Shown piece by piece: positions 37,417 through 53,100 of a stretch of 64,000 nucleotides of DNA (positions within the stretch are counted from its first letter, which is position 1; every line of letters starts with the position of its first letter). This DNA comes from Gammaproteobacteria bacterium. Its GTDB lineage: Bacteria; Pseudomonadota; Gammaproteobacteria; GCA-001735895. A model generated the notes under the pieces. The model did no database searches, was not told the origin of the DNA, and worked only from the letters and a program-made list of their open reading frames with translations. The position numbers and the translations under genes are program-made. The stretch spans positions 28,884-92,883 of the forward strand of contig JBNKPX010000001.1 of NCBI GenBank assembly GCA_050295575.1, read 5' to 3'.

Positions 37417-38874
37417 TTATCGCTTCCAGAAAACTGTAGAGAATAATACGATTACACTCAACAGTTCCAGTCGTCCAAGAATCATTGCAAAAGATAGTGT
37501 CCATTTTGCGCTATCAGGCAGCGGTGCAAAGTTGCCCGCAGGACCGATAATATCCCCTAAACCTGGGCCAACATTGGTTAAGGCAGTCACAGAACCGGTA
37601 AAACTGGTGACAAAGTCCACTCCAAATGCCGTTAGCAATAATGTGGTGATCGCCAGCGCAATAAAGAACATAAAGGAAAAGGCAATCGCCGATGCGGTGA
37701 TGTCGTCTTCGATGCGTTTGCCATTATATTTGATCAGAAATATGCCATGTGGATGGACCTGTTTCTTTAACTGGTTTAAAAGAAATAGAAAAGATAGCTG
37801 AAAGCGGAATACCTTCATCCCGCCACTGGTAGAACCCGAGCAGCCACCGATAAAGGTCACGATAAAAAACAATGCAATACTGAATTGCCCCCAGTGGGTA
37901 TAATCAGAAGAAGCATATCCAGTCGTAGTGATTACCGATGTGATATTAAATGCCGCCTGAGTCAGGGCCTCAAACGGAGGCAAGGTGTTTACCGACATCA
38001 ACTGCAGCGTCAATAAAGCAATGATGCTAGCGGTTATCAGTAAGAATCCCATGACCTGTTGATCGACCCGGTGATGTATAGAGCGAGTGGTAAAATAGCG
38101 GATAAAAAAGGTTAAAGGCAGTGCACCTGCCATCATGAAGATTACCGATATCCATAGTATTATGGGGCCGAAGCGCGCCATAGAGCGATCATCAGTCGCA
38201 TAGCCACCGGTTGAAACCGTCGTCATCGCATGATTCACGGCATCAAAGATCGACATTCCTCCCATCCAGTAACTCACTGCACATAACAGGGTAATTAACA
38301 GATAACTGAGCAGTAAGGCTCGCGCCAGACCGTGAAACTTGGGCAGAGATTTTTCAGACCAGTCAGATGATTCGGTCTGGAATAGCTTCATCCCCCCTAT
38401 CTGTAAAAAAGGCAGAATCGAAACCGCCATCCCTATCACGCCCAGGCCACCGACCCATTGTAGTAAAGAGCGCCACAAAAGTATGCTACGTGGCAGGGTT
38501 TGCAGATGGCTCATCACCGTTGAGCCCGTTGTGGTAATCCCTGAAACCGATTCAAATACCGCATCAACCAGCGACAGGGGGTGATGTGCGAAAACAAGCG
38601 GCAATGAGCCCGCAAGCGACAGCAGTATCCAGCTAAAAGTAGTGAGTAGATATAGCTGACGGGTAGCCAGTGTGATTCTGGATGAGCTGAATAGCAGGAT
38701 CAGGGTTAAACCTGTAACGGCCGTTACTGCCGCAGAATCAAGAAAAGGCTGTAACTCCTGATCATGGGTGAAATAGGCAAATCCAGCGGGCAGCAACATT
38801 AATGCGGCCATAATTAAGGCCAATATCCCACAAATGTAGAGGATAGGCCGTAAAAGCTTAATCATCGCAATCAA
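37417..38874 (-). CDS. trkH: TrkH/KtrB-family potassium transporter
   Basis: 485 aa of polytopic membrane protein with repeated selectivity-filter-like glycine motifs ('TGFTT'-type 'TTTGST', 'STGGYA', 'TTTGYA', 'SGSTSGGMK'). Confidence 0.85.
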   Translation of the reverse strand: MIAMIKLLRPILYICGILALIMAALMLLPAGFAYFTHDQELQPFLDSAAVTAVTGLTLILLFSSSRITLATRQLYLLTTFSWILLSLAGSLPLVFAHHPLSLVDAVFESVSGITTTGSTVMSHLQTLPRSILLWRSLLQWVGGLGVIGMAVSILPFLQIGGMKLFQTESSDWSEKSLPKFHGLARALLLSYLLITLLCAVSYWMGGMSIFDAVNHAMTTVSTGGYATDDRSMARFGPIILWISVIFMMAGALPLTFFIRYFTTRSIHHRVDQQVMGFLLITASIIALLTLQLMSVNTLPPFEALTQAAFNITSVITTTGYASSDYTHWGQFSIALFFIVTFIGGCSGSTSGGMKVFRFQLSFLFLLNQLKKQVHPHGIFLIKYNGKRIEDDITASAIAFSFMFFIALAITTLLLTAFGVDFVTSFTGSVTALTNVGPGLGDIIGPAGNFAPLPDSAKWTLSFAMILGRLELLSVIVLFSTVFWKR

Positions 38875-38984
38875 TACCTGAATAATTTCAGGTTATATGA
38901 TTCAACTTTTTGGCGTTAAAAATCTATATGCGAAACGATACTAAAGCGTAAAATTTGCGTAAAAATTGATTCAAAAGTCAGGCA

Positions 38985-40805
38985 TTAAAACGGAAAAAAT
39001 ATCGGCGTTAGCAGTAGCGCAATAATCATTGCCGCAATTTGAAGCGGTACCCCTACTTTGACAAAATCTAAAAACGTGTATTTTCCAGGCGCCAGGATCA
39101 GAGTATTCACCGGCGATGCTATTGGTGTCGCAAAGGCAGTCGATGCGGCCAGAGCAACCATCATCATATAGGGCTGTGGATTAACCCCGAGAGATTGTGC
39201 AGCACTTATTGCAATCGGGGCGACCAGCACCGTGGTTGCAGTATTTGAGATAAACTGGCTGAAGATAGAGGTAAAGATAAACAGGGCTGCCCCCAATGCC
39301 ATTGGACTACTTCCACCAAAAGCATCCACCAACTGATCAACTATCAGCCTGGCCGCTCCTGTTTTTTCCATAGCAGTAGCCACCGGAAGCATACAGGCTA
39401 TCAGTATCAGACTAGAGGGTTTAAGTGATTTATAGGCCTCTTGCATAGTGACGCAACCACTAATCACCATAGCCAGTGCCGCTGCCATCACCGCCGTCAG
39501 CGTGGGTAACCAGCCCATCGTCATACAGATCAGCATCAATAGCATAATGAGTAATGCCATCGGAGCCTTATGGGCATGAGAAGGCGCTTCCACCATTTCA
39601 GCCGGAGTTTCGACAACGATAAAATCTCTCCGGTCATTCAACTTCTCTATATAGTTCCAGCCACCAGCCAGTAATAAGCTATCAGCAAATCTTAGTGGGG
39701 TGCCATCGAAGTCGGTCGTTAGTGCTTCATCATCGCGTAATATCCCAATCACACTGAGCCCAAATTTTTCTCTGAATCCACCCTCTTTGATGGTTTTCCC
39801 AACCAGTGAAGATCCGCGCCGTAACATAACCTCGGCTACCCCGAACTCACTATGCATTTTCCGAATCAGGCCCCTGGGGAAGTCATCTGAGGTCAGGTTT
39901 AAAGCCTCGCAGATCAAGCTGATTTGTTTAGCATCCGCATAAACCATTAACTCATCGTTCTTTTTGATGATGGTTTGCAGGGTTACCGGTAACAGCATCG
40001 AGGTTAAACGGCCTTTGCGACGGATACCGAATACAGTAACCTCATAGTTAGTACGTAATCCCGCAGAGGCAACAGTCTCGCCGATCAGTTTCGAATCTGC
40101 TGCTACCGATAGCAGCTGCAATTGATCAGCAATACCGTAACGCTCAGCAAACTCATGTAAATGAGGATGAGGTTGATCGGGGTTTCTGATATCAGCATTG
40201 GGCAACAACCTTCGACCAATAACAATCAGATAAAACATACTGAAAATTAGTATGACAATGCCTATTGGAGTGAAATCGAAAAAATTAAAGGGGGCCAGTC
40301 CAGCCTGCTGCAGGGTCTCACTGGCGACGATGTTAGGCGGAGTACCAATCAGCGTTAACATACCACCAACAAGAGATGCGAAGGCCAGAGGCATCAGCAG
40401 TTTAGACGGAGACATACCCGATTTTCGGGACAGACTAAGGACAACCGGAATAAGTAAGGCCACTGCACCTGTCGAGCTCATAAAAGCTGATAAGGTCGCA
40501 ATCACCGGGAGCAAAAACAGAAGCAAACGAGTCTCGCTGTTACCTCCCATATTCAGAATCCACTGCCCTGCCGCGGCAGCGACTCCGGTACGAAATAGAC
40601 CCTCACCGACAACAAATAACCCTGCAATCATTATCACAACAGAATTACCAAAGCCTGAAAAAACTTCAGAAGCGCTGATAACGCCGGAAAATGCCAATGT
40701 CATTGCCACCATTAAAGCGACTATATCCATGCGGATACGATCCCAGATAAACAAGCCAATAGTGATAGCTAACAGGCAAAATATAAACAGGATTTCTCCG
40801 GTCAT
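38985..40805 (-). CDS. SLC13/DASS-family anion permease with two central TrkA_C (RCK_C) domains
   Basis: 606 aa. The N- and C-terminal membrane halves share the repeated 'TPPN' / 'SPVNTL' hairpin motifs. Two cytoplasmic TrkA_C-like segments lie between them. Confidence 0.75.
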   Translation of the reverse strand: MTGEILFIFCLLAITIGLFIWDRIRMDIVALMVAMTLAFSGVISASEVFSGFGNSVVIMIAGLFVVGEGLFRTGVAAAAGQWILNMGGNSETRLLLFLLPVIATLSAFMSSTGAVALLIPVVLSLSRKSGMSPSKLLMPLAFASLVGGMLTLIGTPPNIVASETLQQAGLAPFNFFDFTPIGIVILIFSMFYLIVIGRRLLPNADIRNPDQPHPHLHEFAERYGIADQLQLLSVAADSKLIGETVASAGLRTNYEVTVFGIRRKGRLTSMLLPVTLQTIIKKNDELMVYADAKQISLICEALNLTSDDFPRGLIRKMHSEFGVAEVMLRRGSSLVGKTIKEGGFREKFGLSVIGILRDDEALTTDFDGTPLRFADSLLLAGGWNYIEKLNDRRDFIVVETPAEMVEAPSHAHKAPMALLIMLLMLICMTMGWLPTLTAVMAAALAMVISGCVTMQEAYKSLKPSSLILIACMLPVATAMEKTGAARLIVDQLVDAFGGSSPMALGAALFIFTSIFSQFISNTATTVLVAPIAISAAQSLGVNPQPYMMMVALAASTAFATPIASPVNTLILAPGKYTFLDFVKVGVPLQIAAMIIALLLTPIFFPF

Positions 40806-41413
40806 GATGATCTCCAGTGTTTTTGGGATAGTAGCAGGGTTATGAATTCTAGCAATGGATTAAACTGTTTCTTGCAACTGATTCGCCAACAAGAACAATT
40901 TCAATAACAATCGATGGTTTGTCGTAAACCGTGTAGCTCTACTTAATAGCAGCTAGCCAAGATGTGTTTGATACAATTTTTAAAAGCAACTAATAATAAA
41001 CGGTAAACAGAAACGTTTGAAAATTATCCACGCAGTCTTGCTGTAATAAGGTCAGGGACTGTTACCATCACAAATACTGGTAATTGCTTCTTTTTTTGGC
41101 CTTCAACCCGAACCTCAGCATGTCCCGGCGGCCACTACTGACCTGATGCTTAATCATCGATCATGTCATCTAAAGCCTGCTCAAGTTGATCTCTTATGGG
41201 TCGCTAAACTGATGAATGCCCTGTCATGAAGATATTCGTCGAACCCGGCCGATTTACCTGCACCGTGAAGCGCTGGACTTTCGTAAATCCCTCAATGGAC
41301 CGGCGTTGATAGTCGAACAGACAATGACCTGATGGGCCATCAGTCCATGTATTGTGCTCAGGCAGGGTAACTTTATACCCTGATTTAACGCTGCTTTTTT
41401 GGAAAATATCGAC

Positions 41414-41640
41414 ATGAAAACTGCTGTAGCAACTTTGCTAGATGATAATAATAAGCTCAAAGTGCTGTTGCTTATAGAGCGTCAGTTAAGAGCTGAGCAA
41501 TACCACGAGATAAAACGTCTCAAACAAAGTTACCAACAACTTCTGGAATAATTCCGTCTGTCGCAACAGTGTCAATTTGGAAAAAGCAACGAACTCAGTG
41601 CTGATCAATTGTTACCGTGGAACATAAAACCTGATCAATG
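41414..41640 (+). mobile_element. degraded IS66-family transposase N-terminal fragment (remnant)
   Basis: 'MKTAVATLLDDNNKLKVLLLIERQLRAEQYHEIKRLKQSYQQLLE' reads as a leucine-zipper segment. After a frameshift, 'QFGKSNELSADQLLPWN' resembles the IS66 TnpC N-terminus ('RFGRSSEKL..DQL.LF'). It lies in a 1.2-kb gene-free gap. Confidence 0.4.
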
Positions 41641-42066
41641 AACAGCTGGGGTTGTCTGGACGGTTACGATTATCTAAAAACACTGCTTGAATAAAAACAA
41701 AACAGCCTGAAGATATTGATGACCCATTGTCGTTGAATATAACTGACTCAAATCTCATTCCTTTTTGTATTTTGACTGGTGGTATTTAAGAATTCAACAA
41801 GGCATGTACTATTGCCCATAGATTGTAGTCTTTTTCCTATGCGGCTCCATTAGCTATAACACTGCTCCACTTGATTAGTGTCTGTATTAAGTAGCGCATA
41901 GTTATGGCTAATGATTTGCTCAAAGGTTTACCGCGGCAACCGGACGCTCACGATGCTAACTATAAAAATCATAGCTCCTGTTGGTGGCGCAAGCCTGACG
42001 ATTAAGCATTAACTCCTAACGATGAAAAATATTTTCATCCAGGCATTATTCGGGTTTAGTTTTGTT

Positions 42067-43329
42067 TTATGGCAAAATTTTGGCTCTGGTATTGATCAGT
42101 AGGGCCTCACCCAAAAGCGCTAATTCCATGGCAATAGCTTGTCGGTGACGTTGAGTAGCATTATCAATACTATTTTTTTGGCGCTCTATACTGATAGGTT
42201 TGCCTAATAGGTATCTTTGACCTGCAATAAAATTTCTTCCATGATTCATCCAGAGCTTTTTGACTTTTTCGTAATCTGGATACGGGAGATTTTCATCTTC
42301 ATCGAGTTCAACAGCTTCGTCTTCAATTTCATCATCATCTTGAACTCCCTGCTCGCTCTTGCTGACGTCGATAAGTTGATATTGTTCAAGATCTATGCCG
42401 GTGATGAGACAAAATGCTTCAGCCGCTAGTTTCGATACCGATTCATCCTGCATCTTATTGATCAGCCAGTTTACTGCATGCGGGTCTCCTAAAACCCCGG
42501 TTGCCTTTATAACATTCCTCATCTGACCATCACCCTTTGCGAGGGTTGAAATCCAGACGCGTGCCTGATCGAGTGGAAGCACTCTGAAAGCCATGTTGAT
42601 AGCAAGGGTCTGGTAAGGGCCAGGGTTAAACACATAAGGCTCCAGGCCTTTGATAATATCGCGTTTACCTAACAGGATAGAGGACCATATAGCCCAGAAT
42701 CGAATATTATCGTCTTCTGAATTTAATGCTGCTTCTAGAAAAGGCATCAAGTCCAGCCGTCTTAACTCACCGATTAGTCTTAGAGAACGACTGTATAATG
42801 CGAGATGCTCTTTGCAATCGTCTCTTTCTAAAATTCGAGTCAGGTATTCTTCAGGGTTTTCTCTGCGAACGCTGCATGCGGCTATAGCAAGATATTTATG
42901 ATTGAGATCTTTACTGATAAAAAACTTCTTAATCCAGCTATGAACCAGTTTCCCTGGAAGCCATCCTAGCGCTGAAATCAATCCCTTTACAGCCGTCTCA
43001 CTTGAAAGGCCAACTTCCACGACCTGTTGAATTTTATTCATATCATGGCTTCTAAAGGCAACTACAGCTGCTGTGAAGACCTCTCCGGGTTCAGCTAGCT
43101 CCAGAGCATGCTCACATAAGGGCCAGGCGGCATCTATTGAGGTCATTAAAGCATCTAATTGAGCATTAATGCGCTGCTCTAGCTCCTGGATATCTGCAGG
43201 ATAATAATGCGGCTGATTTACAGCAATTGAACGTAACACCCACAAAAAGGAGGCATTATCAACATACTGCTCAAAAATCTCTGTGAAAGAGCTTGCGCCC
43301 AAATGGTCTATTGTAGAAGCAGTATTCAT
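42067..43329 (-). CDS. HEAT/PBS-lyase-like repeat protein (TIGR02270-like), last gene of the vgrG cargo module; candidate T6SS effector or immunity protein
   Basis: 420 aa of alpha-helical repeat protein with an acidic stretch 'QDDDEIEDEAVELDEDENLPYPDYEK'. It starts 12 bp downstream of the DUF4150 gene. Confidence 0.45.
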   Translation of the reverse strand: MNTASTIDHLGASSFTEIFEQYVDNASFLWVLRSIAVNQPHYYPADIQELEQRINAQLDALMTSIDAAWPLCEHALELAEPGEVFTAAVVAFRSHDMNKIQQVVEVGLSSETAVKGLISALGWLPGKLVHSWIKKFFISKDLNHKYLAIAACSVRRENPEEYLTRILERDDCKEHLALYSRSLRLIGELRRLDLMPFLEAALNSEDDNIRFWAIWSSILLGKRDIIKGLEPYVFNPGPYQTLAINMAFRVLPLDQARVWISTLAKGDGQMRNVIKATGVLGDPHAVNWLINKMQDESVSKLAAEAFCLITGIDLEQYQLIDVSKSEQGVQDDDEIEDEAVELDEDENLPYPDYEKVKKLWMNHGRNFIAGQRYLLGKPISIERQKNSIDNATQRHRQAIAMELALLGEALLINTRAKILP

Positions 43330-43341
43330 TTAGGGATGATA

Positions 43342-43722
43342 CTACCCTACAATATTTTTCTTATTATGAAATAGTGGGTCACCTAAACGACATACATTTT
43401 TGCCTTCAAATTTAACGTCGAATGAGTACATCATAAACTCACACTCTGCTTTGATAGTATGACTGGCAATACCTTTCTTATTACCTGCTTGATCACCAGT
43501 ACTTTTACTGTATTTAGAACCTTTTACCATTGGCATTTTCCCATCAGTTTTTATCGATTTTGGGCCTTTAACAGTATCTTTTGATTTGCCAATATTAGGA
43601 TACGGAATAGGAACTACCGAATTTCCTATTTGTGTTAAACAGACATCTGGGAAAACCGTGCTCACCCCTCCGCTCCCTTTATGTGCTATTCCGCGAGTAT
43701 TAGAAAACGTAGTTTGTCCCAT
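43342..43722 (-). CDS. DUF4150 PAAR-like domain protein (short, no toxin extension)
   Basis: 'FPDVCLTQIG..VPIPYPNIG' and 'FEGKNVCRLGDPLFHNKKN' match PAAR-like DUF4150 signatures. The protein is only 126 aa. Confidence 0.65.
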   Translation of the reverse strand: MGQTTFSNTRGIAHKGSGGVSTVFPDVCLTQIGNSVVPIPYPNIGKSKDTVKGPKSIKTDGKMPMVKGSKYSKSTGDQAGNKKGIASHTIKAECEFMMYSFDVKFEGKNVCRLGDPLFHNKKNIVG

Positions 43723-43766
43723 TTTTTAACCTTTCTCTCAATTAAACCAATAGTTTTGGCTTATGT

Positions 43767-44759
43767 TTAACGTCTTAACGATATTGTGGCACTTTTAATT
43801 TTAAGCGATTTTTTATCGCAAGGTAAAGATGCACGCCAAACCATGCTTAACCTCACCAGATTCGGCTCTAATAATACGGTTTCCAGATTGAATTCTGGAC
43901 TGTGCATTGCGTTCTGTATACTGATATTAGATTTCAAGCCAACACTGGGCAAATTGAATTGCATTTTACCTGATGGATGCATACCCGTAATTTCGACCGG
44001 CTCACCGCCTTTTAAATACCCTGTCGCTACTAAATCAGGATGAGCCATGTTTAAAAACCTGCTATCAAAATCCTTTGGTAAATACGGGGCTCGATTTGCT
44101 TGCCACAGATCATCATAGGTACCAACATAGTCTGAGCGAGGTTTCCAGGCTGGAGAAATAAAGCCAAAACCGGCTGGATAGGGTATATCTTGAATATTCC
44201 TGATTAATTGTGCAGGATCTTCCAGATTTGGTAAGGGAACCCCATTCATCTCAGAGCCTTTACGTGACCCGGCAAATCCACAGCCAACAGGATTTCGTTC
44301 ATCTGCCGAATCGATCTCACCATCAATGATATGCATGCCACCGAAAGATTTTTCATAAACCATAGGCATGCTCGTAAAGGGCTTAGGAGAAGATATTTTT
44401 CCGTCAATCCACTCCCTGTCACCAAACACAGATATTGTCTTATGCAAAGATGCGATCTGTAGACCAACGTCCAACTGTTTAACCTTTTCCTTGCCTGGAG
44501 AACAGGCTAGACCATTCATTATGATATCTGTACCAGGTTTACCAATATGAAAGTCGGAAGCATATTTAAGGCTGGAGGTTTCAGGCTCTCCGTAATAGAT
44601 GTCCTCATCTATGGGCTCTATTTGCTCTTCCAGTAAAGTCCACTTATCTGCAATGTAAAAGCTGGCTTTTACGATCAGGTACAGGGTGTCTACGCCATGT
44701 TGATCAGGAAAAAGTGCAATCTTGGCAGCAAAGGGCGTTTTATTCTCAAGCTGTAACAT
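43767..44759 (-). CDS. DUF2169 family protein (T6SS adaptor for DUF4150/PAAR-like cargo)
   Basis: The N-terminus 'MLQLENKTPFAAKIALFPDQHGVDTLYLIVKASFYI' matches the DUF2169 signature (N.TPF...D..G...L.vVvKaTF). It sits between vgrG and the DUF4150 gene, as in the Agrobacterium vgrG2 / Atu3641 / tde2 arrangement. Confidence 0.65.
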   Translation of the reverse strand: MLQLENKTPFAAKIALFPDQHGVDTLYLIVKASFYIADKWTLLEEQIEPIDEDIYYGEPETSSLKYASDFHIGKPGTDIIMNGLACSPGKEKVKQLDVGLQIASLHKTISVFGDREWIDGKISSPKPFTSMPMVYEKSFGGMHIIDGEIDSADERNPVGCGFAGSRKGSEMNGVPLPNLEDPAQLIRNIQDIPYPAGFGFISPAWKPRSDYVGTYDDLWQANRAPYLPKDFDSRFLNMAHPDLVATGYLKGGEPVEITGMHPSGKMQFNLPSVGLKSNISIQNAMHSPEFNLETVLLEPNLVRLSMVWRASLPCDKKSLKIKSATISLRR

Positions 44760-44786
44760 CAGGAATGATTTCTAATAGCCATTCGC

Positions 44787-45341
44787 TTAATTAACCTGAA
44801 CGGAACCACCCAGAATACGGTTCACTCCAGTTGAACGATTAAGCAGGTACTTCCCACGAATCATTATTTTGCCCTCTTTAGTAAGAGTAATACTGGCTTC
44901 ACCACACTTTAGAACAATTTCATCGTGAGCTTCGATTTCGACTCTTTTTCCATCAACAACTGTCGTCGTGTTTGCAAGATTAAGCGAGCTAGCGGTATCA
45001 TTTTTATTATCAACTACATTTTCAAATGTTTGCGCAGTCGTTAATTCAAAGTTTTCAATCATCTCCTGTAAAGGAGAATGAACAAAACCTATTATGATGG
45101 GTTTAGTCAGATTGCCTTCTTTAAACATTAAAACAACCTTTCGACCAACCTGTTGGGGTGTGATGGAAACGGTGGAGATAGAGACTAATGGATGTTTAGT
45201 TTGGTTAACGGAGAAATTAACCATAGGCTCACCCAACGCGTTCAACTGAGTAAGCTCACCTATAATTACATCGCCTTGAGGTAGTTCATACGTTGAAGTC
45301 TGTAGATTTTCATCAATCGAAATTGAATTCTTATTCACCAT
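44787..45341 (-). CDS. hypothetical VgrG-associated protein (184 aa)
   Basis: It lies immediately downstream of vgrG (9-bp gap) with a beta-rich predicted composition. No family was confidently recognised. Confidence 0.45.
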   Translation of the reverse strand: MVNKNSISIDENLQTSTYELPQGDVIIGELTQLNALGEPMVNFSVNQTKHPLVSISTVSITPQQVGRKVVLMFKEGNLTKPIIIGFVHSPLQEMIENFELTTAQTFENVVDNKNDTASSLNLANTTTVVDGKRVEIEAHDEIVLKCGEASITLTKEGKIMIRGKYLLNRSTGVNRILGGSVQVN

Positions 45342-45350
45342 TCATCATAC

Positions 45351-47312
45351 CTAGTTGGTAGATACCTTACTGCCTTTAATAGTGACATTACTTGAGGCTT
45401 TAATATTCACATTTGAAGAGCCGTTAACAACTATATTTTTCCCCTTAATGGTTATATCACCATTCTTTTTCATAGTTATTGATGCAGAACCTGTCTTCAA
45501 AATAATCTGGTCTCCAGCATCAATAAGTATATTTTTACCTACCTGTTCACTAAGGTTATCACCTACCGTAACAGACATATCCTTGCCGATAGACTCAGTA
45601 AGATTTTTACCGACCGTAACAGACATATCCTTGCCGATGGACTCAGTATGGTCTTTACCGACATCAATTGTCTTATTTTCGCCAATTGACTCACTTTGAT
45701 TTTTAGCCACAGACTTATTTCGATCATTACCGATACTTGAGTCTTCGTTGTGACCAATTGTTTTAGTTCTATCGTTGTCCACCGAAAGTGTTTCATTATT
45801 TTCAACTTCGGTATCCATATTTAACTCGGCATGGACGTAGATCTGTTCCGAGCCTTTTAGGTCATCAAAACGAAATTCATTGCAGTTTGATGAAGTACCT
45901 TTTTTGGTAGAACGAGTACGGATTCCTGACTGTGTCTTAGAACTAAATGGAATGCTGTTATCGCCATTATACAGGGAACCTGTAACTATTGGCCGGTCTG
46001 GGTCACCGTCAAAGAAATTGACAACAACTTCCATGCCTATACGAGGAATAAATGAGGTGCCCCAACCTGAGCCAGCCCATGGCTGCATAACTCTCAGAAA
46101 ACAACTACTGTTTTCATTGCGTTTTCCTTCTCGATCCCAGTGGAACTGAACCTTAATTCTGCCAAGATCATCGATATAAATTTCTTCACCAGAAGGTCCA
46201 ACCACAGTGGCTGACTGAGGCCCCTGCATCCAGGGTTTATGATGAATTAATGGCGGTCTGTAATAGACTTTTTCAGGGATACAGGTAAAGTCATTAGAAT
46301 AATCAGAGCTACCCTCGTGTCCAGCCAGATAGCTGTCATCTGAGGCTCTGTGGTGTATTGAGGTGATGACATATTCACCCTGCTCTTCTTTCACCGCATG
46401 TTTTTTTAAGGTGAATTTTCCACCCGCATAAAAACTGGAGCAATCGCTTGAGGCCTGAATGGTGTTCATTGGAACTTCTTCGGCCTGAATACGCTTTTCA
46501 GTTAGGTCATTGATACCGGCAAAGTCATGGTAAGGCGTATATTCATAATGTTCGTATGATTTAGCCTTGGCAAAGTTACTGGTAGAGTCTCTGGATTTAA
46601 TCTGATCAGTGCCGGGAGAGTTAAAATCATAGTCATCTAAGGTCCATTTACCTTTTCTGAACTCATACAGATGCTCCCATCGATTGATCTGAGTATTGGG
46701 TTGATTGCCTTTTGAATAGGTAAGGTCAGTTTCCTTGCAGTTTGAATACGCATTTTGCGCATCAACAATATGCATCATATGCGAATCGTTAATATGCTCA
46801 AAATAATATGCAATACCATCTTCTTCCAGTAGTCTGGAGACAAAATCAAAGTCACTTTCGTTGTGTTGAACACAATACTCGCGTGGCGTTGTGTTTCCGC
46901 TAGCCTTAAATTTAAAATCATTAAACCCAAGATCGTTAAAAACCTGGGTTACGATAGCTTTGGTTGTTTTATTCTGAAAGATTCGATGTTCGTTGGTTTT
47001 GGTTAAAAACCATAACCAGGGAACCATAGTTAATTGGTATGTACGAAGATTATCGGATTTTACTTCACCATACACGAAGCGGCTGATAAAGCCGTTGAAG
47101 GTTCTTTTTAAGTCATTCTGAATTGTAACTGTGGCAGGCTTGCCAATCAGTTGCTCAGGTTTAAGATTATGGTTTTTTGATAGTACCTGAATTTCAAATT
47201 CAAACACATCTGAGATTGATTCGACTCCTTCGATGGAAGTTAACAATAACTCATCTTTCGGCAGAGTCGTGGAGATTGATAGCAGTCTATTGTCTTGAGT
47301 GAGCTGACTCAT
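45351..47312 (-). CDS. vgrG: Type VI secretion spike protein VgrG (TssI)
   Basis: 653 aa with gp27-like N-terminal and gp5-like OB regions. C-terminal beta-helix octapeptide repeats read 'GKDMSVTVGKNLTESIGKDMSVTVGDNL'. Confidence 0.9.
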   Translation of the reverse strand: MSQLTQDNRLLSISTTLPKDELLLTSIEGVESISDVFEFEIQVLSKNHNLKPEQLIGKPATVTIQNDLKRTFNGFISRFVYGEVKSDNLRTYQLTMVPWLWFLTKTNEHRIFQNKTTKAIVTQVFNDLGFNDFKFKASGNTTPREYCVQHNESDFDFVSRLLEEDGIAYYFEHINDSHMMHIVDAQNAYSNCKETDLTYSKGNQPNTQINRWEHLYEFRKGKWTLDDYDFNSPGTDQIKSRDSTSNFAKAKSYEHYEYTPYHDFAGINDLTEKRIQAEEVPMNTIQASSDCSSFYAGGKFTLKKHAVKEEQGEYVITSIHHRASDDSYLAGHEGSSDYSNDFTCIPEKVYYRPPLIHHKPWMQGPQSATVVGPSGEEIYIDDLGRIKVQFHWDREGKRNENSSCFLRVMQPWAGSGWGTSFIPRIGMEVVVNFFDGDPDRPIVTGSLYNGDNSIPFSSKTQSGIRTRSTKKGTSSNCNEFRFDDLKGSEQIYVHAELNMDTEVENNETLSVDNDRTKTIGHNEDSSIGNDRNKSVAKNQSESIGENKTIDVGKDHTESIGKDMSVTVGKNLTESIGKDMSVTVGDNLSEQVGKNILIDAGDQIILKTGSASITMKKNGDITIKGKNIVVNGSSNVNIKASSNVTIKGSKVSTN

Positions 47313-47484
47313 ATTTATTGCGCCTTTATTTTGCGATTCATCTATCCATATTTCCCAAAAATAATCAGCACTAATCTCTGGATACGATCACCAGAGATTA
47401 TTTCCGAAATTAATGAGTATCGCCTAAATCAGATACTACGAAGAGATACTTGTCATTAGATAGCAGATTAATCTGCTGTCTAAA

Positions 47485-47967
47485 TTATAACGGTTTCGCA
47501 GTTTCCAGGTCGTAACCAACGCGCTGTGGATTACCTGATTTATTAGTTTTGTCAAAATCACTGTAGTTGATCATGATTTTAGCATAGCTAAGTGTAATCT
47601 GTTCCATAGGCTCACCTTCTGAATCAGCAGAAATAGAGTATCCACTAACCAGACAGTTTTCCAGGGTATAATCCATATATTCCTGTACCTTATCTGCACC
47701 AGTTCGTACGAACTTGATGACAACCTTTTTACCAGCACTACCAGTTACAGCTTCTTTAAAGATGGCTGTTACAGAATTATCAGCAGGTTTGGTTAAAGTG
47801 ATTTCACTTAAGCTAGGACGAGTAGACTCACGGTTAGACAGATTACCGGCTTCCATTGAGATGCCACGACCGACTGCGAATTGGACAGACTGTACAGCAA
47901 TATGATCTTTATAACCATCTGCAGTAACATTTCCTTTAATTCCGTCATATAGTAAATATATTGCCAT
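47485..47967 (-). CDS. hcp: Type VI secretion tube protein Hcp (TssD)
   Basis: 160 aa. The N-terminus 'MAIYLLYDGIKGNVTADGYKDHIAVQSVQFAVGRG' matches the Hcp1 family. Confidence 0.9.
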   Translation of the reverse strand: MAIYLLYDGIKGNVTADGYKDHIAVQSVQFAVGRGISMEAGNLSNRESTRPSLSEITLTKPADNSVTAIFKEAVTGSAGKKVVIKFVRTGADKVQEYMDYTLENCLVSGYSISADSEGEPMEQITLSYAKIMINYSDFDKTNKSGNPQRVGYDLETAKPL

Positions 47968-48097: not shown

Positions 48098-50032
48098 TCA
48101 CATGAAACTGTATTGAAAGTCAAAAACTACTCGAATACTATCATTTGGCACTGTAATAGTGTCATCGCTAAAACTTTCATCCACTGGGAAAGCTAATTGT
48201 AAGTTACCACTAATTTGGTTTCGGTATGAGTACTGTACCCCAACCCCAACATCAACAAGCTGCCCCGTTGAGTTTTCTGTGCCATCAATAAGAGAAACAA
48301 CCTCTCCCCAGGATGCATCCACGAAAAGATAGGGCGATAAAATCTTTCTCCAGTTACTGTCTCCAATATCGATATCCATAAACTCAGGAGCATTAAAAAT
48401 CCAGTCAACACCAAAATATAGGGCATTATCTGCCGAAAATTGATTTGTCTGATATCCTCGAGATCTGGTTGGCCCAGCCAGAGAAAACTGATTGATTGAT
48501 GACAAACTGGAACTTGCGAATTGGCCAGATCCTCGGTAAATAAGACGAGTATCAAGGTCCAGTAAAGGAACTTGCCAGAAAGTCAGTAAGGAGTAATTAA
48601 CACCTAGTACATAGTAGTTTTTATCCTGGCCATCCTCAGCACCTTTATCAAAGCTACCAGAAAGCAATGAGATATCGCCCTGATGTAATGCCTTGCTTTC
48701 TTCATTTAGCACATCAAACCTGAAAACGAACGACAGGTTGGAAACAACATCATCTAGCCTGTCATCCTCTGCTCCACCGACTGCACCCAGGCGAAGTTGA
48801 GACTCAATTTCGTTGTATATAATATCGCCATAATAACTAGCCGTCCGGCTACGCTTAAAACGATAGGTTGCAGTGATGTCAGTCTGGGTGGTTTCGCCAA
48901 AAATCCCCAGATCATTAATAGTCTCATTATTCCCTTGACCAAGAACAAAATCATTAGAGGATCGGCCTATACCCAGGTCAAATCTGGGGCTGAAGACCCT
49001 GGATGAGTATCGCAGCTGATAATAGGTTGAGTTTTCGGGATCTACTGTTTTTAAAACCGCCAGCTTTAATTGATCAGCATTGCCAAGCGGATTATGCCAA
49101 AGCCCTTCAGCATAAACACGGTACTGGCCAGTCAGTTCAGATCCATGGTTATCAAATCGAATATTCGCATCATATTTGCGCTCATTCTTGACCAAAATTG
49201 ATAGTTTTGTATCTCCTACCTGTGTACCCGGTTGAAAAAAGCCTGTCGCAATAACACCAGGAAAATCGTTGATTAAATATAAATTCTCTTCTACCAACTT
49301 ATCAGTTACTGGTAATGTCAATAAATCATCAAAAGCTGAAGTCAGGACGTTACTTTTATAAATCTTATTATTTTGTACATCAACCTCTCCTAGAGTCCCT
49401 AATAATACGCTCAAGGTTACGATACCATCCCTAACCTGCTGCTGTGGAATATATGCCTTGGCTAATATAAAACCTCTTTCTCGGTAAAACCTTGTGATAC
49501 GATCAGCAACAGTTTCAATCTGCCCCAGTGTTACACCACGTTTAGAGCGCTGTTCTCTGACCAGCCAGATAAGTCTTTGAACCTCAAGTTCGGACACATG
49601 CCGATCCTGTGTCTCTTCTTCAATCTCGACTAAAAGCTTAGAAACCTCTGCCAGTTCCTTTTTCGTAAAGCCAGATTCCTGAACCTCAAACTCCTGCATA
49701 AGATCAAAGCGTATGCCTTCGATAAGTTTATCGATGTCGGATTTAGTGATACCCAGCTCAGGAAACTCGACTATTCCCTCAATCTTAAATCGCTCAACAT
49801 TCAATCTGGGGCCGGCCTGTGGATCTGGATCCCTGTCCCGTACGCTTGGAATATCAAGATCCTTGAGCAATGACTTTCTTTCCATTTTTGGCATTTCAGT
49901 AATTTCCGGCATACTGAAGAAATCAGCCGATAGATCGGATGAGGTCAAGACTCCAATCGGAATCAGCAAGAGTAGTAAGTAAAGCTTTTTCAATTTTAAT
50001 TCCATTACATAATTCTGATGTACTAATACCAA
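48098..50032 (-). CDS. Two-partner secretion transporter TpsB (ShlB/FhaC/HecB family, POTRA + 16-strand beta-barrel)
   Basis: Signal peptide, then a POTRA_2-like region and a ShlB-type barrel ending in the aromatic 'FDFQYSFM'. The likely true start is 'MELKLKK..' at about 50005. Confidence 0.85.
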   Translation of the reverse strand: MVLVHQNYVMELKLKKLYLLLLLIPIGVLTSSDLSADFFSMPEITEMPKMERKSLLKDLDIPSVRDRDPDPQAGPRLNVERFKIEGIVEFPELGITKSDIDKLIEGIRFDLMQEFEVQESGFTKKELAEVSKLLVEIEEETQDRHVSELEVQRLIWLVREQRSKRGVTLGQIETVADRITRFYRERGFILAKAYIPQQQVRDGIVTLSVLLGTLGEVDVQNNKIYKSNVLTSAFDDLLTLPVTDKLVEENLYLINDFPGVIATGFFQPGTQVGDTKLSILVKNERKYDANIRFDNHGSELTGQYRVYAEGLWHNPLGNADQLKLAVLKTVDPENSTYYQLRYSSRVFSPRFDLGIGRSSNDFVLGQGNNETINDLGIFGETTQTDITATYRFKRSRTASYYGDIIYNEIESQLRLGAVGGAEDDRLDDVVSNLSFVFRFDVLNEESKALHQGDISLLSGSFDKGAEDGQDKNYYVLGVNYSLLTFWQVPLLDLDTRLIYRGSGQFASSSLSSINQFSLAGPTRSRGYQTNQFSADNALYFGVDWIFNAPEFMDIDIGDSNWRKILSPYLFVDASWGEVVSLIDGTENSTGQLVDVGVGVQYSYRNQISGNLQLAFPVDESFSDDTITVPNDSIRVVFDFQYSFM

Positions 50033-50157
50033 CCAGGTATTAGAAACAATATTAACTAGAGGTTCAAGTTTGTCAGGTAATATCTAATTGCAGCGAGATT
50101 TTTTTTGACAGGCATTGCAGCTACCCAAAATCTAACGCTGAATGATCAGGCATTCTG

Positions 50158-53100
50158 TTAAAAGGCAACCGAGACTGTTGTATCTTCTTCTTGATCATCC
50201 TCTCTTAATTCATCATCGTAAAGTTGATCTCGAGGCATACGGATAGATATATCTACAGAGCTATAGTTTCTCAATTCTGTAAAGATAGCAGGATCAATAT
50301 CGCCCAAAGACTCAATTTCTACTAATTGCTCACCAGATATAGCCTGTATGACACCTAGAGAACTAATATCGAGTCCCGTTGTTTTCAAGTTATCAGGCTG
50401 CTCTGGATGAAAAAATATGCTGTTAGTTTTTGCATCGATAAAAATCGCCCCGCTTTGTGGCACATCGAAAACAATCGGCTTCGAAGTTGAACCAAAGGTA
50501 CCGTTCACAGCAAAAAAGGTGGCAGTATTAGCCGTAATATTTGGATTAGTATAATCAATGGTTTTTTCACCATAGAAGCTTCCATTTTCAGAGTTCATAC
50601 GAAGCTTACCATTATCACGATTGACCGCAACGCTGCCTTTATTAACGATAATATCGGTATTTGATTCAAGGAAAATTTCACTACTACCCACTGTAGCCTG
50701 TAATTTATCGATCTCTAGAGTTCCAATTTGATCTATAAAAATCGAGCCAGCACCCGTATTAACCACATCCATTAGGGCTACCTGAGTATTTAATTTTTGT
50801 GCTTCAGAAGCTATCCCGCTATTGGATCTAATAGTTAATGAGTCAGCCAATAGATTATTTGCCGCCCCATTTGAATCACCAATCGCCCCATTCGTGGACT
50901 CGAGAGAAATTGAGTGATTTGGTGCCGACAGCAATTCCAGGCCGATATTACTTTGCGCTGTATAGTTGATATCTCCGCTGTTGGCAATGGTAGAAGTGGA
51001 GTCACTCATCAAGATATCAGCAGCTGAATTGAGGACAACAGACCCAGAGGAAGAAGTCAGGTTAGCATTTTGATCAATACCATTGTTAACCGTAGTGAGA
51101 AGGAGATCATCTACAGCAGTAACCTGTCCATTCAGCTGTAGACCTCCAGCACTAATGTCAACACCGGCTGTGGAGTTAACACTTGAATTAAAGGTTGCAG
51201 TTCCACTCGCGTTAAAAGTAATGCCAGAAGTCGAAAGAGCTATATTACTTGTTAGGTTACGCGAAGTAATATCAATAAAACCACTCGCATTCATCTTATT
51301 GATAGTTAAGTCATTCCCGCTATTATCGATAGTGACGTCGTGTGCATTCTCTACCCATAACTGATTCAAGCTATTAGCATCAGCACCACTTAAAAGTATA
51401 TCCTGCGGGCCAAAGCTAGCACTATTAGCAGTCAGGCGTGTTTCGCCATTTACTATAAAACCGCCCTGCTGAGATATGTTGCCAGATGAAAAAATATTCA
51501 GGTTATTGGCTTGAAACCCGCCCAGATCAGTATTCACGCTATTGGTAACTAATACATCCCCAAGTGAGCCAGATGAAGCATTCAAACTAACCTGTCCATT
51601 CAAGCGATTACCTGAATTATCAAGCGTAATATCGTTGCCGGAAGTAGTAGTTAATAAAGTTAACCCTGCAACCGATAATCCATTTTCCCCGTCATCAATA
51701 GAACCGACCGCTGTTACGTCAAGATCACCATTGATAGTTGTGGAGTTAACTGTTATCTGATTTGCATCAGCAAGTGTTACATCCTGAGCTTTTGAAACAG
51801 TCACAATGTTTAAATCATTCGTAGCTACACCTAGAACTACGTTACCTTTACCAGAGCCCGCATTTAGTATAGTAGTACCATCAACCTTAATAGACGATGT
51901 ACTATTTTCTGTAATATCACCAGATTGCGTTGTGACACTAAAAGAACCAGCGATACTTGATTGATAGGTGTTAGTACCCAGAATCACTCCATTGCTATCG
52001 GTCAAGCTAACATCTTTAGCATCTACAAAAGCAATCTGATTTAAATCATTTGTGAAAGTAGATAGTTTTACGTCTTCACCAGTTGAATCAATAATGGTAT
52101 CTCCTGCCACTGTCCATACACCTGATTGAGAAGCCTCCAAAGCATCAATATTGAGGTCACCCGCCAAATTTAATGCAGCCAGATTTAATGTTGCAATATT
52201 TGTAATATCTACATTCTGTAACTCCCCACCAGAATTAGATTTCACATCTACTGTGTTCTGGAAATTATTACCCGGATTATTTAACAAAACAGATTGGCCA
52301 TCAGCAACTCTGAAATTAGTGGCTCCATCCACACTGATAGCACCAGATTGTGTCAGATCGTAAGCTCCCAATGAAATAACATTCAATGTTCCTTTTACAC
52401 TTGCTGAGGAGATATGAATAACATTGCTATTGGTGAAATTAACATCAAAAACTTCGCTATTACTGAGACTGATTTCCCCTGAGAAATCATTTCCAGAATC
52501 GGTCAGATCGATAGCGCCTGCTCCAGCATTAATCGTTACCGCAGCAGCATTTGCTTGTTGAATGATGGGACCAGATTGTTTTATGCCTGTAGCATCCACC
52601 TTAAAGATGCCAGAGCCAATATGCGATTCACCAAATACCAAATTATCGGTATCGGTAATAGTTACTTCATTGTTGCCACTGTTATTTAATGAAACAGGGC
52701 CAAGAAACTGATTACCTGCCTGACCTAATACGATACTACTAGCACCAGCATTAAAAATTATATCCTGAGCAGGACCGCTAGTAGGTGATTGTTGTATTAA
52801 GGTTGTGCCAGTTTGTTGAGAGACCCCGACACTATTGAGTACAAAGCCCACCATACGGATATCGCGGAGTTGAATGGTATCGAAATCGCTAATTTTCACA
52901 TTGGCTGCACTACCGATAGAGAGACTGCCAAAATTATTAGACGAGTTAAGCAGGCTTATATCATAACTGCCTGAACCTAAATTTACATTATTTGCAATCA
53001 GTTTGTTGTTTCCAACGATAGGTGCGTTGCTGGAGGTTACTGTTAAATCATAGATTCCAGCATCTACTATACCCAGTCGGGTTTCTGAAGAAGTCCCAGA

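What the first reader, a model, noticed from the sequence alone, without database searches (positions are those of the whole stretch)
42067..47967. Orphan T6SS hcp-vgrG island whose cargo module lacks a recognisable toxin
An hcp-vgrG island with no T6SS core genes nearby carries a DUF2169 / DUF4150 cargo module without a recognisable toxin. The island runs hcp, vgrG, a 184-aa unknown, a DUF2169 adaptor, a 126-aa DUF4150 PAAR-like protein and a 420-aa HEAT/PBS-lyase-like repeat protein.

In characterised DUF2169 systems such as Agrobacterium Atu3641-Tde2, the DUF4150 domain is the N-terminus of a large toxin. Here it is a free-standing 126-aa protein. That makes the 420-aa helical-repeat protein or the 184-aa protein the only candidates for an undescribed effector/immunity pair. 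An IS66 remnant and lower GC content suggest horizontal acquisition.
Basis: partly seen in the sequence, partly recalled or inferred. Interest (0 to 1): 0.72.

Follow-up and report, generated by a model that had tools for sequence, protein, structure and literature searches.

The report
T6SS spike-assembly module missing its toxin cassette
The six genes are a known kind of kit that builds and caps the needle tip of a bacterial type VI secretion system. The two "unknown" proteins are conserved assembly helpers rather than a new toxin and antidote, and the toxin cassette that follows this kit in most related bacteria is absent here.

Summary
No toxin domain and no T6SS core gene lies in the 64-kb window.

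- **184-aa protein:** it is a DUF6484 protein, a TvpC-like mimic of the VgrG tip. Its last ~50 residues match the last ~50 residues of the neighbouring VgrG.
- **420-aa protein:** it is a clear TIGR02270-family HEAT/ARM solenoid.
- **Conservation:** across 44 related loci the 420-aa protein is as conserved as VgrG and DUF2169 (~54% identity), and the 184-aa protein slightly less (~48%).

Together with DUF2169 (TvpA) and the free-standing PIPY-type cap, these form a Tvp "Class II / synteny type A"-like spike-assembly module, as published in 2025-2026.

In 52 of 72 related loci the TIGR02270 gene is followed directly by a thiolase-like TvpD homologue. The next gene is usually a Tle1-like lipase, less often an AHH nuclease, with matching immunity genes. 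In the window that slot holds 1.2 kb of non-coding DNA with an IS66 tnpB fragment.

So this is an unarmed but selectively maintained spike module (dN/dS 0.07-0.12), not a hidden effector/immunity pair. It is of modest interest. The residual novelty is that the role of TIGR02270 has never been characterised.

The parts
47485..47967 (-). hcp (TssD tube protein), 160 aa
   Evidence: PF05638, E = 1e-35. A 160-aa Hcp sits at the same position in about 40 related loci.
45351..47312 (-). vgrG (TssI spike), 653 aa, with no C-terminal toxin domain
   Evidence: Phage_GPD, Phage_base_V and Gp5_trimer_C. TIGR03361, 592 bits.
44787..45341 (-). DUF6484 protein, TvpC-like partial VgrG mimic (OB-fold plus a short beta-prism tip)
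   Evidence: PF20093, E = 9e-16. Residues 131-174 are 51% identical to VgrG 592-636, and the OB region aligns to VgrG 365-448. Family-level hhalign to the VgrG C-terminus gives probability 93.5%, E = 2e-7. The function is inferred from PMC13373197.
43767..44759 (-). DUF2169 protein (TvpA, chaperone of the PAAR-like cap), 330 aa, single domain
   Evidence: PF09937, E = 7e-91, full length. dN/dS is 0.07 against a relative about 95% identical in nucleotide sequence.
43342..43722 (-). Free-standing DUF4150 / PIPY-type PAAR-like spike cap, 126 aa
   Evidence: PF13665, E = 2e-41. It carries the VPIPYPN motif, and its length and C-terminus are conserved in relatives. It is 126 aa in 54 of 68 loci.
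42067..43329 (-). TIGR02270-family HEAT/ARM solenoid protein, 420 aa; a conserved accessory component whose function has not been characterised
   Evidence: TIGR02270, 315 bits vs cutoff 206.8. The AlphaFold2 model is all-alpha, pLDDT 74, pTM 0.71. Foldseek against the PDB returns only generic HEAT/ARM scaffolds. There are 2834 representative clusters at E <= 0.001. Natural fusions to a TvpD-like domain exist.
40846..42066 (.). Empty cassette site: 1.2 kb with no ORF longer than 68 aa. Relatives carry a TvpD-like gene plus effector and immunity genes here.
   Evidence: blastn against L002 shows synteny on both sides, with 8.9 kb in L002 replaced by about 1.4 kb here. tblastn with 166 cassette proteins finds no relic anywhere in the window.
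41216..41332 (+). IS66-family TnpB N-terminal fragment (remnant)
   Evidence: PF05717, E = 0.003 over 25 aa. tblastn gives 58-72% identity to 39 plasmid records; the listed hits that carry an annotation are IS66 tnpB or IS66-family proteins. No LZ_Tnp_IS66 hit was found for the adjacent frame.
48098..50032 (-). ShlB/FhaC-type TpsB transporter. This is the conserved upstream neighbour of the module; a functional link has not been shown.
   Evidence: POTRA_2 and ShlB. It lies directly upstream of hcp in at least 36 related loci.
38985..40805 (-). CitMHS/TrkA_C transporter, the downstream boundary of the island
   Evidence: PF03600, E = 3e-100. The same gene flanks the module or cassette in L002, L019 and L083.

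Best explanation
The island is the conserved spike end of a type VI secretion system. Hcp forms the tube and VgrG forms the spike.

**Proposed assembly, inferred from published Tvp work**
1. The 126-aa DUF4150 (PIPY-type) protein caps the VgrG tip.
2. The DUF2169 protein (TvpA) chaperones the hydrophobic face of that cap.
3. The 184-aa DUF6484 protein (TvpC-like) forms a trimer that copies the VgrG tip, so cap plus chaperone pre-assemble on it.
4. The real VgrG then replaces TvpC.

**The 420-aa protein.** This TIGR02270 HEAT solenoid is a further non-enzymatic scaffold of the module. I infer that it helps hold the cap complex. I also infer that, in relatives, it docks the thiolase-like TvpD adaptor that brings a separate cargo toxin.

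**State in this genome.** The swappable tail (TvpD-like adaptor, toxin, immunity) is absent and the slot holds an IS66 scar. The module therefore builds a spike that is unarmed, or armed in trans. It does not hide a new toxin.

**Shown here:** the gene identities, homology of the 184-aa protein to the VgrG tip, conservation, absence of the cassette, and purifying selection.

**Inferred:** the order of assembly and the role of TIGR02270.
For: **Family assignments**
- Searches give the Pfam and NCBIfam assignments.
- The 184-aa protein shares its tip with VgrG.
[quoted passage not shown] It defines Class II by the DUF6484 TvpC.
- PMC11883445 defines synteny type A as vgrG, DUF6484, DUF2169, a thiolase-like gene, DUF4150 and an armadillo-like repeat gene.

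**Survey of 75 GTDB species loci plus others**
- The usual order is hcp, vgrG, DUF6484, DUF2169, DUF4150 (126 aa), TIGR02270.
- A TvpD-like gene follows immediately in 52 of 72 loci and lies elsewhere in the module in 6.
- No TvpD-like gene is present in 14, including the window.
- The gene after TvpD is Tle1-like in 33 cases, usually followed by DUF2931. In five checked loci the cassette is an AHH nuclease plus Imm11.
- Tandem TvpD-effector-immunity cassettes occur in L037, and a second partial copy in L020.

**Link between TIGR02270 and TvpD**
- Natural TIGR02270::TvpD-like fusions exist: P0123, P0204 and P0266, with E down to 2e-73.
- The same gene set is annotated in a cultured betaproteobacterium, Caballeronia.

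**Conservation and selection**
- Median identity to the window across 44 loci is: Hcp 69%, VgrG 58%, DUF6484 48%, DUF2169 55%, DUF4150 77%, TIGR02270 54%.
- dN/dS against L082, about 95% identical in nucleotide sequence, is 0.07-0.12.

**T6SS context**
- In L074 and L059 the module abuts clpV, tssG and tssF.
- L074 and L080 have no TvpD-like gene or effector between the module and that core block.

**Cassette absence**
- Searches show that the cassette is absent from the window.
Against: - No TvpD, so one defining part of Class II is missing.
- No T6SS core gene lies in the window, nor in the 6 kb beyond its start on a sister contig that carries the identical first gene. Function therefore depends on a core cluster that has not been seen.
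- The role given to TIGR02270 rests on gene neighbourhood and gene fusion only. No complex model or experiment supports it.
- A test for co-variation between its C-terminal tail and TvpD was weak (partial r = 0.16, p about 0.04).
- The published Tvp papers do not assign this protein any role.
- All relatives are metagenome-assembled genomes.
Confidence: 0.75

Rival explanations
1. One reading: the 420-aa helical-repeat protein and/or the 184-aa protein are a previously undescribed effector/immunity pair carried by the DUF2169/DUF4150 module.
For: - No other candidate cargo lies in the island.
- HEAT-like immunity proteins do exist, for example Tdi5a (PMC13392607).
- TIGR02270 has never been characterised experimentally (one search found one paper, which mentions it only as a domain).
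Against: - The 184-aa protein is a DUF6484 VgrG-tip mimic.
- TIGR02270 is present upstream of effector cassettes of different kinds that bring their own immunity genes: Tle1-like with DUF2931, and AHH with Imm11.
- TIGR02270 is as conserved as VgrG and DUF2169.
- It is fused to the TvpD-like adaptor in some organisms.
- It has no enzyme fold and, by eye, no signal peptide.
Confidence: 0.05
2. Decaying relic: after losing its cargo cassette (and perhaps the T6SS core), the island no longer functions and is on its way to pseudogenisation.
For: - No T6SS core lies in 64 kb, nor beyond the window start on a sister contig that carries the identical first gene.
- The cassette is absent and an IS66 scar is present.
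- In many relatives the module abuts the core cluster, but here it does not.
Against: - All six ORFs are intact and full length against their family models.
- dN/dS is 0.07-0.12 against L082, about 95% identical in nucleotide sequence, which also has no TvpD-like gene in the 1.3 kb after TIGR02270.
- The same cassette-less arrangement recurs in other species, in two cases directly next to an intact-looking core block (L074, L080).
Confidence: 0.12
3. The module is a functional spike that is armed in trans. It carries cargo effectors, with their own TvpD-like or other adaptors, that are encoded elsewhere in the genome. Locally only the structural part remains.
For: - TvpD-like, effector and immunity genes behave as a mobile unit. 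They are duplicated in tandem in L037, with a second partial copy in L020, and they vary between close relatives that share the same flanks (L002, L083, L019, window).
- PMC7714669 reports many clusters that contain only PRK06147 plus an effector.
Against: Nothing in the window supports it: no TvpD-like, Tle1, DUF2931, AHH or Imm11 relic is present. The rest of the genome could not be searched.
Confidence: 0.3

Closest known systems
Pseudomonas aeruginosa vgrG1b cluster PA0095-PA0101 (Tvp Class II; DUF2169 synteny type A)
   Same: vgrG is followed by a DUF6484 TvpC-like gene, a single-domain DUF2169 TvpA and a DUF4150-type cap. The synteny type also includes a conserved helical-repeat gene (PMC13373197, PMC11883445).
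   Different: - In P. aeruginosa the cap is the N-terminus of the GHH2 nuclease Tse7, with immunity protein Tsi7. A thiolase-like TvpD (PA0098) lies between DUF2169 and the cap.
- In the window the cap is free-standing and TvpD, toxin and immunity are absent.
- I could not retrieve PA0101 to test directly that it is a TIGR02270 protein.
Proteus mirabilis hcp-vgrG pef operon (pefA-G)
   Same: It is an hcp-vgrG-led operon of synteny type A. The accessory genes downstream of the toxin/immunity pair (pefF, pefG) are required for killing (PMC5714391).
   Different: It contains the PAAR-like GHH2 toxin PefD and the immunity protein PefE. The window has neither.
Serratia marcescens Tvp Class III system (VgrG1, TvpC, TvpAB, TvpB, Paar1)
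   Same: It has a free-standing DUF4150 Paar1 and no toxin fused to the cap. A TvpC pre-complex is replaced by VgrG, and this has been shown experimentally.
   Different: Class III uses a long DUF3540 TvpC and pentapeptide-repeat TvpB/TvpAB. None of these is present here: the window's DUF2169 protein is 330 aa with a single domain.
Agrobacterium tumefaciens Atu3641 (Tap2) - Tde2 (Tvp Class I)
   Same: A DUF2169 chaperone is paired with a DUF4150 cap downstream of vgrG.
   Different: Class I has no TvpC or helical-repeat component, and its cap is fused to the Tde2 DNase.
Uncultured gammaproteobacterial loci with the full arrangement (e.g. L002 from GCA_050295135.1; L005, endosymbiont of Galathealinum brachiosum)
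   Same: The order TpsA, TpsB, hcp, vgrG, DUF6484, DUF2169, DUF4150 (126 aa), TIGR02270 is identical. L002 is 73% identical in nucleotide sequence across the module and has the same CitMHS flank.
   Different: They continue with a TvpD-like gene, a Tle1-like lipase and DUF2931 immunity genes. The window lacks these.

Membership tests
Tvp accessory system (DUF2169-based VgrG-PAAR spike chaperoning; PMC13373197) | A DUF2169 (TvpA) protein is encoded with a DUF4150-type PAAR-like protein downstream of a vgrG. | tested here: met
   PF09937, E = 7e-91, and PF13665, E = 2e-41. The genes are adjacent and lie two genes downstream of vgrG.
Tvp Class II / DUF2169 synteny type A | A short TvpC of the DUF6484 family: an OB-fold plus a short beta-prism that mimics the VgrG tip. 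| tested here: met
   PF20093, E = 9e-16. BLASTP to its own VgrG tip gives E = 2e-9, and the OB region also aligns. hhalign probability is 93.5%. Trimer formation and 3D structure were not modelled.
Tvp Class II / DUF2169 synteny type A | A thiolase-like TvpD (PRK06147) co-chaperone is present in the cluster. | tested here: not met
   No ORF or relic is present in the window. It is present in 58 of 72 related loci. The relatives' protein is homologous to the PGAP-annotated 'beta-ketoacyl synthase N-terminal-like' protein of a Caballeronia cluster (E = 2e-18).
Tvp Class II / DUF2169 synteny type A | The PAAR-like domain is fused to a toxin and followed by an immunity gene (as in Tse7/Tsi7 and PefD/PefE). 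| tested here: not met
   The cap is 126 aa and consists of the domain only, with a conserved C-terminus. No immunity gene is present.
Tvp Class III | A DUF3540 TvpC and pentapeptide-repeat TvpB/TvpAB. | tested here: not met
   No DUF3540 or pentapeptide hit was found in any of the six proteins at E <= 0.1.
TIGR02270 family | A score above NCBI's curated cutoff over the full model. | tested here: met
   315 bits vs cutoff 206.8, covering model positions 3-402 of 410. The window protein is 30% identical (E = 4e-48) to a PGAP-annotated TIGR02270 protein in a Caballeronia DUF6484/DUF2169 cluster.
   - The fold is a HEAT solenoid with only generic scaffold matches.
- Conservation equals that of VgrG and DUF2169.
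- The protein is present irrespective of effector type.
- Toxicity itself cannot be tested with these tools.
Orphan (auxiliary) hcp-vgrG island | No tssA-M genes are adjacent, and a T6SS core is present elsewhere in the genome. | tested here: inconclusive
   No core gene lies in the 64-kb window. None lies in the 6 kb beyond its start on a sister contig that carries the identical first gene. In relatives L074 and L059 the module abuts clpV, tssG and tssF.

The most novel reading that the evidence does not exclude
The TIGR02270 HEAT protein may be a fifth, so far unassigned component of Class II-type Tvp systems.
- It would belong to the invariant spike-assembly core together with TvpC, TvpA and the PIPY cap.
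- It would serve as the docking platform for swappable cassettes of thiolase-like adaptor (TvpD), cargo toxin and immunity.
- On this reading TvpD is a cargo adaptor, not an obligatory chaperone of the cap.
- The window, like L074 and L080, would show that the core persists under purifying selection without TvpD or any local toxin, so TIGR02270 has a role that does not depend on an effector.
Probability: 0.35. Interest if true: 0.55.

Novelty: new variant of a known kind. Interest (0 to 1): 0.35.

Why it matters
**For this window.** The practical result is negative: there is no hidden toxin to chase.

**From the comparison with relatives**
- A large family (TIGR02270; 2834 representative clusters at E <= 0.001) travels with DUF6484/DUF2169/DUF4150 spike modules, yet the two recent papers that define these systems do not assign it a role.
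- In this gammaproteobacterial clade the cap is free-standing.
- The thiolase-like adaptor moves with the toxin rather than with the spike genes.
- Modules without any adaptor or toxin are kept intact.

**If confirmed,** this would refine the Tvp model: which parts build the spike and which load cargo. It would also give a simple rule for finding cargo toxins, namely the gene after the TvpD-like gene.

Tried and rejected
- **Relics of the lost cassette.** tblastn with the six L002 cassette proteins and with 166 cassette proteins from all loci found nothing. The one hit, inside the aldehyde dehydrogenase gene at E = 0.006, is taken as chance.
- **More of the IS66 element.** The frame next to the TnpB fragment looks by eye like the N-terminus of an IS66 transposase, but it gave no Pfam hit. 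Only the TnpB fragment is supported.
- **Broad alignments for the genome scan.** A closer set (A4) worked but reached mostly Gammaproteobacteria, so P. aeruginosa PA0101 and P. mirabilis PefF/G were not retrieved. The equivalence "armadillo-like repeat gene = TIGR02270" rests on the Caballeronia cluster and on synteny.
- **Does the C-terminal tail of TIGR02270 specify its TvpD or effector partner?** A sharp recombination breakpoint lies at about residue 372 between the window and a relative about 95% identical in nucleotide sequence. Across 42 loci, however, tail-to-TvpD co-variation is weak (partial r = 0.16, p about 0.04) and tail type follows taxonomy, not effector type. The idea is not supported.
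- **Fold search of the 420-aa model.** Only generic HEAT/ARM scaffolds were returned and none had E <= 0.001. A PDB sequence search hit mainly designed alphaRep proteins.
- **T6SS core beyond the window.** A sister contig that carries the identical first gene shows only housekeeping genes for 6 kb. The window's own genome was not among the GTDB representatives.
- **Complex modelling.** No multimer prediction tool was available.

Full report
**1. Observation**

| Gene | Coordinates | Length | Evidence |
|---|---|---|---|
| hcp | 47485-47967 | 160 aa | PF05638, E = 1e-35 |
| vgrG | 45351-47312 | 653 aa | GPD, OB and gp5-C domains; TIGR03361, 592 bits; no toxin extension |
| 184-aa ORF | 44787-45341 | 184 aa | see section 2 |
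| DUF2169 | 43767-44759 | 330 aa | PF09937, E = 7e-91 |
| DUF4150 / Tox-PAAR-like | 43342-43722 | 126 aa | PF13665, E = 2e-41 |
| 420-aa ORF | 42067-43329 | 420 aa | weak HEAT_2 hit; see section 3 |

- Pfam scans of 30 other ORFs of at least 150 aa returned only housekeeping genes and no tss gene, with six ORFs unmatched.
- The 1.2 kb between the 420-aa gene and the next gene, a CitMHS/TrkA_C transporter at 38985-40805, has no ORF longer than 68 aa.
- That gap contains a 25-33-aa fragment of an IS66 TnpB (Pfam E = 0.003). By tblastn it matches 39 plasmid records; the listed hits that carry an annotation are IS66 tnpB or IS66-family proteins.
- GC is 40.4% in the island, 44.8% in window 1-40845 and 41.6% in the adjacent two-partner secretion genes.

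**2. The 184-aa protein**

- It is a DUF6484 protein (PF20093, E = 9e-16).
- BLASTP against the neighbouring VgrG aligns residues 131-174 with VgrG 592-636, the extreme tip, at 51% identity (E = 2e-9). Its N-terminal half aligns with the VgrG OB-fold at 365-448.
- At family level, a profile of 25 DUF6484 proteins aligns its last 52 columns to the last 52 columns of a profile of their cognate VgrGs (hhalign probability 93.5%, E = 2e-7).
- This matches Monlezun et al. 2026 (PMC13373197). [quoted passage not shown]
- That paper names DUF6484 proteins such as PA0096 as the short TvpC of "Class II" systems.

**3. The 420-aa protein**

- NCBIfam places it firmly in TIGR02270 (315 bits vs cutoff 206.8, near full length).
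- The family is large. There are 813 hits in the 90% clusters, mostly from uncultured Gammaproteobacteria at 55-90% identity. There are 2834 representative clusters at E <= 0.001.
- An AlphaFold2 model (pLDDT 74, pTM 0.71) is an all-alpha solenoid. A disordered acidic loop at 327-344 precedes a near-invariant D-E-N-L-P-W/Y-P-D motif.
- Foldseek against the PDB returns only generic HEAT/ARM scaffolds such as alphaRep, importins, SF3B1 and CAND1. None has E <= 0.001 and there is no enzyme fold.
- A PDB sequence search gives mainly designed alphaRep proteins.
- Sachar et al. 2025 (PMC11883445) list an "armadillo-like repeat" gene as one of three conserved genes of unknown function in DUF2169 "synteny type A". 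The other two are DUF6484 and a thiolase-like gene.
- Liu et al. 2020 (PMC7714669) note TIGR02270 as the most common extra domain fused to the thiolase-like PRK06147 proteins.
- Monlezun et al. do not mention this component.

**4. Comparative genomics**

*The common arrangement.*
- Contexts of homologues and a scan of GTDB species genomes (75 loci) were annotated with profiles seeded from the window.
- The dominant arrangement is: giant TpsA-like protein, ShlB-type TpsB, hcp (160 aa), vgrG (~645 aa), DUF6484 (~180 aa), DUF2169 (330 aa), DUF4150 (126 aa), TIGR02270 (~420 aa), a ~360-aa protein, an effector, then immunity genes.

*The ~360-aa protein.*
- It is thiolase-like, with weak PF00109 hits and weak FabF N-terminus matches in the PDB.
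- It is homologous (E = 2e-18) to the "beta-ketoacyl synthase N-terminal-like" protein of an annotated Caballeronia cluster. That cluster runs DUF6484, TIGR02270, DUF2169, the thiolase-like protein, a PAAR-like toxin, then two immunity genes.
- It is therefore the TvpD/PRK06147 equivalent.

*Counts among 72 loci with a complete TIGR02270 gene and downstream sequence.*

| Position of the TvpD-like gene | Loci |
|---|---|
| Immediately downstream of TIGR02270 | 52 |
| Elsewhere in the module | 6 |
| None in the locus (includes the window) | 14 |

*The cassette.*
- The gene after TvpD is Tle1-like in 33 cases, usually with DUF2931 immunity genes.
- In five checked loci (L003, L017, L028, L057, L083) it is an AHH nuclease, with Imm11 immunity genes confirmed in L003, L028 and L083.
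- TvpD-effector-immunity units occur in tandem in L037, with a second partial copy in L020.

*Fusions and the cap.*
- Three representative proteins (P0123, P0204, P0266; ~800 aa) are natural TIGR02270::TvpD-like fusions, with E down to 2e-73.
- The cap is exactly 126 aa in 54 of 68 loci. It carries the PIPY motif and an invariant C-terminus, so it is free-standing by nature and not truncated.

**5. What is missing in the window**

- L002 is syntenic with the window at 73% nucleotide identity from TpsB to near the end of the TIGR02270 gene, and again from the CitMHS transporter onward.
- Between those points L002 has 8.9 kb: a TvpD-like gene, a Tle1-like gene, two DUF2931 genes and two more ORFs. 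The window has about 1.4 kb.
- No relic of any cassette gene is detectable anywhere in the window.
- Relatives with the same CitMHS flank differ at this site:

| Locus | Content between TIGR02270 and CitMHS |
|---|---|
| L002 | lipase cassette |
| L083 | TvpD-like + AHH nuclease + Imm11 |
| L019 | nothing; 230-bp gap |
| Window | nothing, plus an IS66 scar |

- L082, about 95% identical to the window in nucleotide sequence, has a reversed orphan Imm11-like gene after TIGR02270. Its contig ends before any flank gene.
- The site is therefore a cassette hot spot.
- Between the window and L082, protein identity is 92-100% up to about residue 372 of TIGR02270 and then falls to 30%. The recombination boundary lies inside the 3' end of that gene.

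**6. Is the module alive?**

- All six ORFs are intact.
- dN/dS between the window and L082 is 0.07 for DUF2169, 0.08 for DUF4150 and 0.12 for TIGR02270 codons 1-370.
- Median identity to the window across 44 loci with all six genes is: Hcp 69%, VgrG 58%, DUF6484 48%, DUF2169 55%, DUF4150 77%, TIGR02270 54%.
- The thiolase-like adaptor (43%), Tle1-like effector (38%) and DUF2931 (42%) are lower, measured against the L002 copies.
- In L074 and L059 the module is convergent with a block of three TPR proteins, clpV, tssG and tssF. The same block by ORF size is seen in at least 10 further loci.
- L074 and L080 have no TvpD or effector between TIGR02270 and that core block.
- The six-gene set therefore behaves as the structural spike set of this T6SS lineage, and the TvpD-effector-immunity tail as an optional add-on.

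**7. Mechanism**

*Shown here.*
- The gene identities.
- Tip homology between the DUF6484 protein and VgrG.
- The conserved module and the variable cassette.
- Absence of the cassette from the window.
- Purifying selection.

*Taken from the literature.*
- TvpA binds the hydrophobic face of the DUF4150 cap.
- TvpC nucleates a pre-complex that VgrG then replaces. This was shown experimentally for the Class III system of S. marcescens and predicted for Class II.

*Inferred by me.*
- TIGR02270 is a non-enzymatic scaffold of the spike pre-complex.
- In relatives it couples to the TvpD-like adaptor and through it to cargo.
- This rests on fusion, adjacency and effector-independent conservation only.
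- A test for tail-TvpD co-variation was weak (partial r = 0.16, p about 0.04).

*Consequence for this genome.* The spike is locally unarmed. Whether it is armed in trans, or whether a core T6SS exists at all, could not be tested. A sister contig carrying the identical first gene shows only housekeeping genes for 6 kb beyond the window start, and the genome is not among the GTDB representatives.

**8. Comparison with known systems and novelty**

- The island fits the Tvp family: DUF2169 plus DUF4150 downstream of vgrG.
- It has the Class II hallmark, a DUF6484 TvpC.
- It lacks Class II's TvpD and the toxin-fused cap, and it has none of the Class III parts.
- It is best described as a Class II-derived variant with a free-standing cap that has lost, or never held, the adaptor-toxin-immunity cassette.
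- The remaining novelty is the uncharacterised TIGR02270 component, and the indication that TvpD behaves as a cargo-linked adaptor in this clade.

**9. Horizontal acquisition**

- Conserved flanks argue against a recent insertion of the island as a whole.
- The CitMHS flank is most similar to L019 (83% nucleotide identity, against 80% for L083 and 73% for L002). The TIGR02270 region of L019 is the most divergent (65%, against 75% and 73%).
- This suggests that the module has been exchanged by recombination between related lineages.

Noticed in passing
window 48098-63816 (TpsB 48098-50032; TpsA-like 50158-63816): A 4552-aa TpsA-like exoprotein and its ShlB-type transporter lie directly upstream of hcp on the same strand. 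The same TPS-hcp-vgrG linkage is kept in at least 36 related loci, whose record titles range from Thiotrichaceae and Chromatiales to Cellvibrionaceae, Colwellia and Psychromonas. This may indicate a functional coupling between a giant adhesin and the T6SS.
   Followed up: partly
window 42067-42196 (3' end of the TIGR02270 gene), compared with L082: Against a relative about 95% identical in nucleotide sequence, the protein is 92-100% identical up to about residue 372 and then drops to 30%. Two tail 'alleles' exist among close relatives. A recombination breakpoint therefore lies inside the gene, next to the variable cassette site. Co-variation of the tail with the downstream adaptor was weak.
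   Followed up: yes
window 42295-42350 (residues ~327-344 of the 420-aa protein and the motif after them): A disordered acidic loop is followed by a near-invariant D-E-N-L-P-W/Y-P-D motif (D345, L348, P351) across the TIGR02270 family. It may be a short binding motif.
   Followed up: no
L037, L020 (related loci): L037 carries a tandem repeat of the unit TvpD-like adaptor, Tle1-like lipase, DUF2931 immunity. L020 has one full unit followed by TvpD-like and Tle1-like fragments. The thiolase-like adaptor is therefore duplicated together with the toxin rather than with the spike genes.
   Followed up: partly
P0123, P0204, P0266 (~800 aa); P0122 (1403 aa); P0142 (1038 aa): Natural fusions of TIGR02270 with the thiolase-like adaptor exist. 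Two longer proteins appear to contain two or three tandem TIGR02270 units.
   Followed up: partly
L074 11579-21077; L059 7642-17012: The T6SS core block next to the module in relatives contains three TPR proteins (~220, ~940 and ~475 aa) between the spike module and clpV. This is an unusual accessory set that I did not characterise.
   Followed up: no
L019 and L083 compared with window 38003-43595: The housekeeping flank (CitMHS/TrkH) is closest to L019 (83% nucleotide identity), but the TIGR02270 region of L019 is the most divergent (65%). The spike module seems to have been swapped between lineages by recombination.
   Followed up: partly
L082 3182-3730 (minus strand): The closest relative of the window carries an orphan Imm11-like gene (E = 0.001) on the opposite strand just after the TIGR02270 gene, with no toxin in view.
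   Followed up: no
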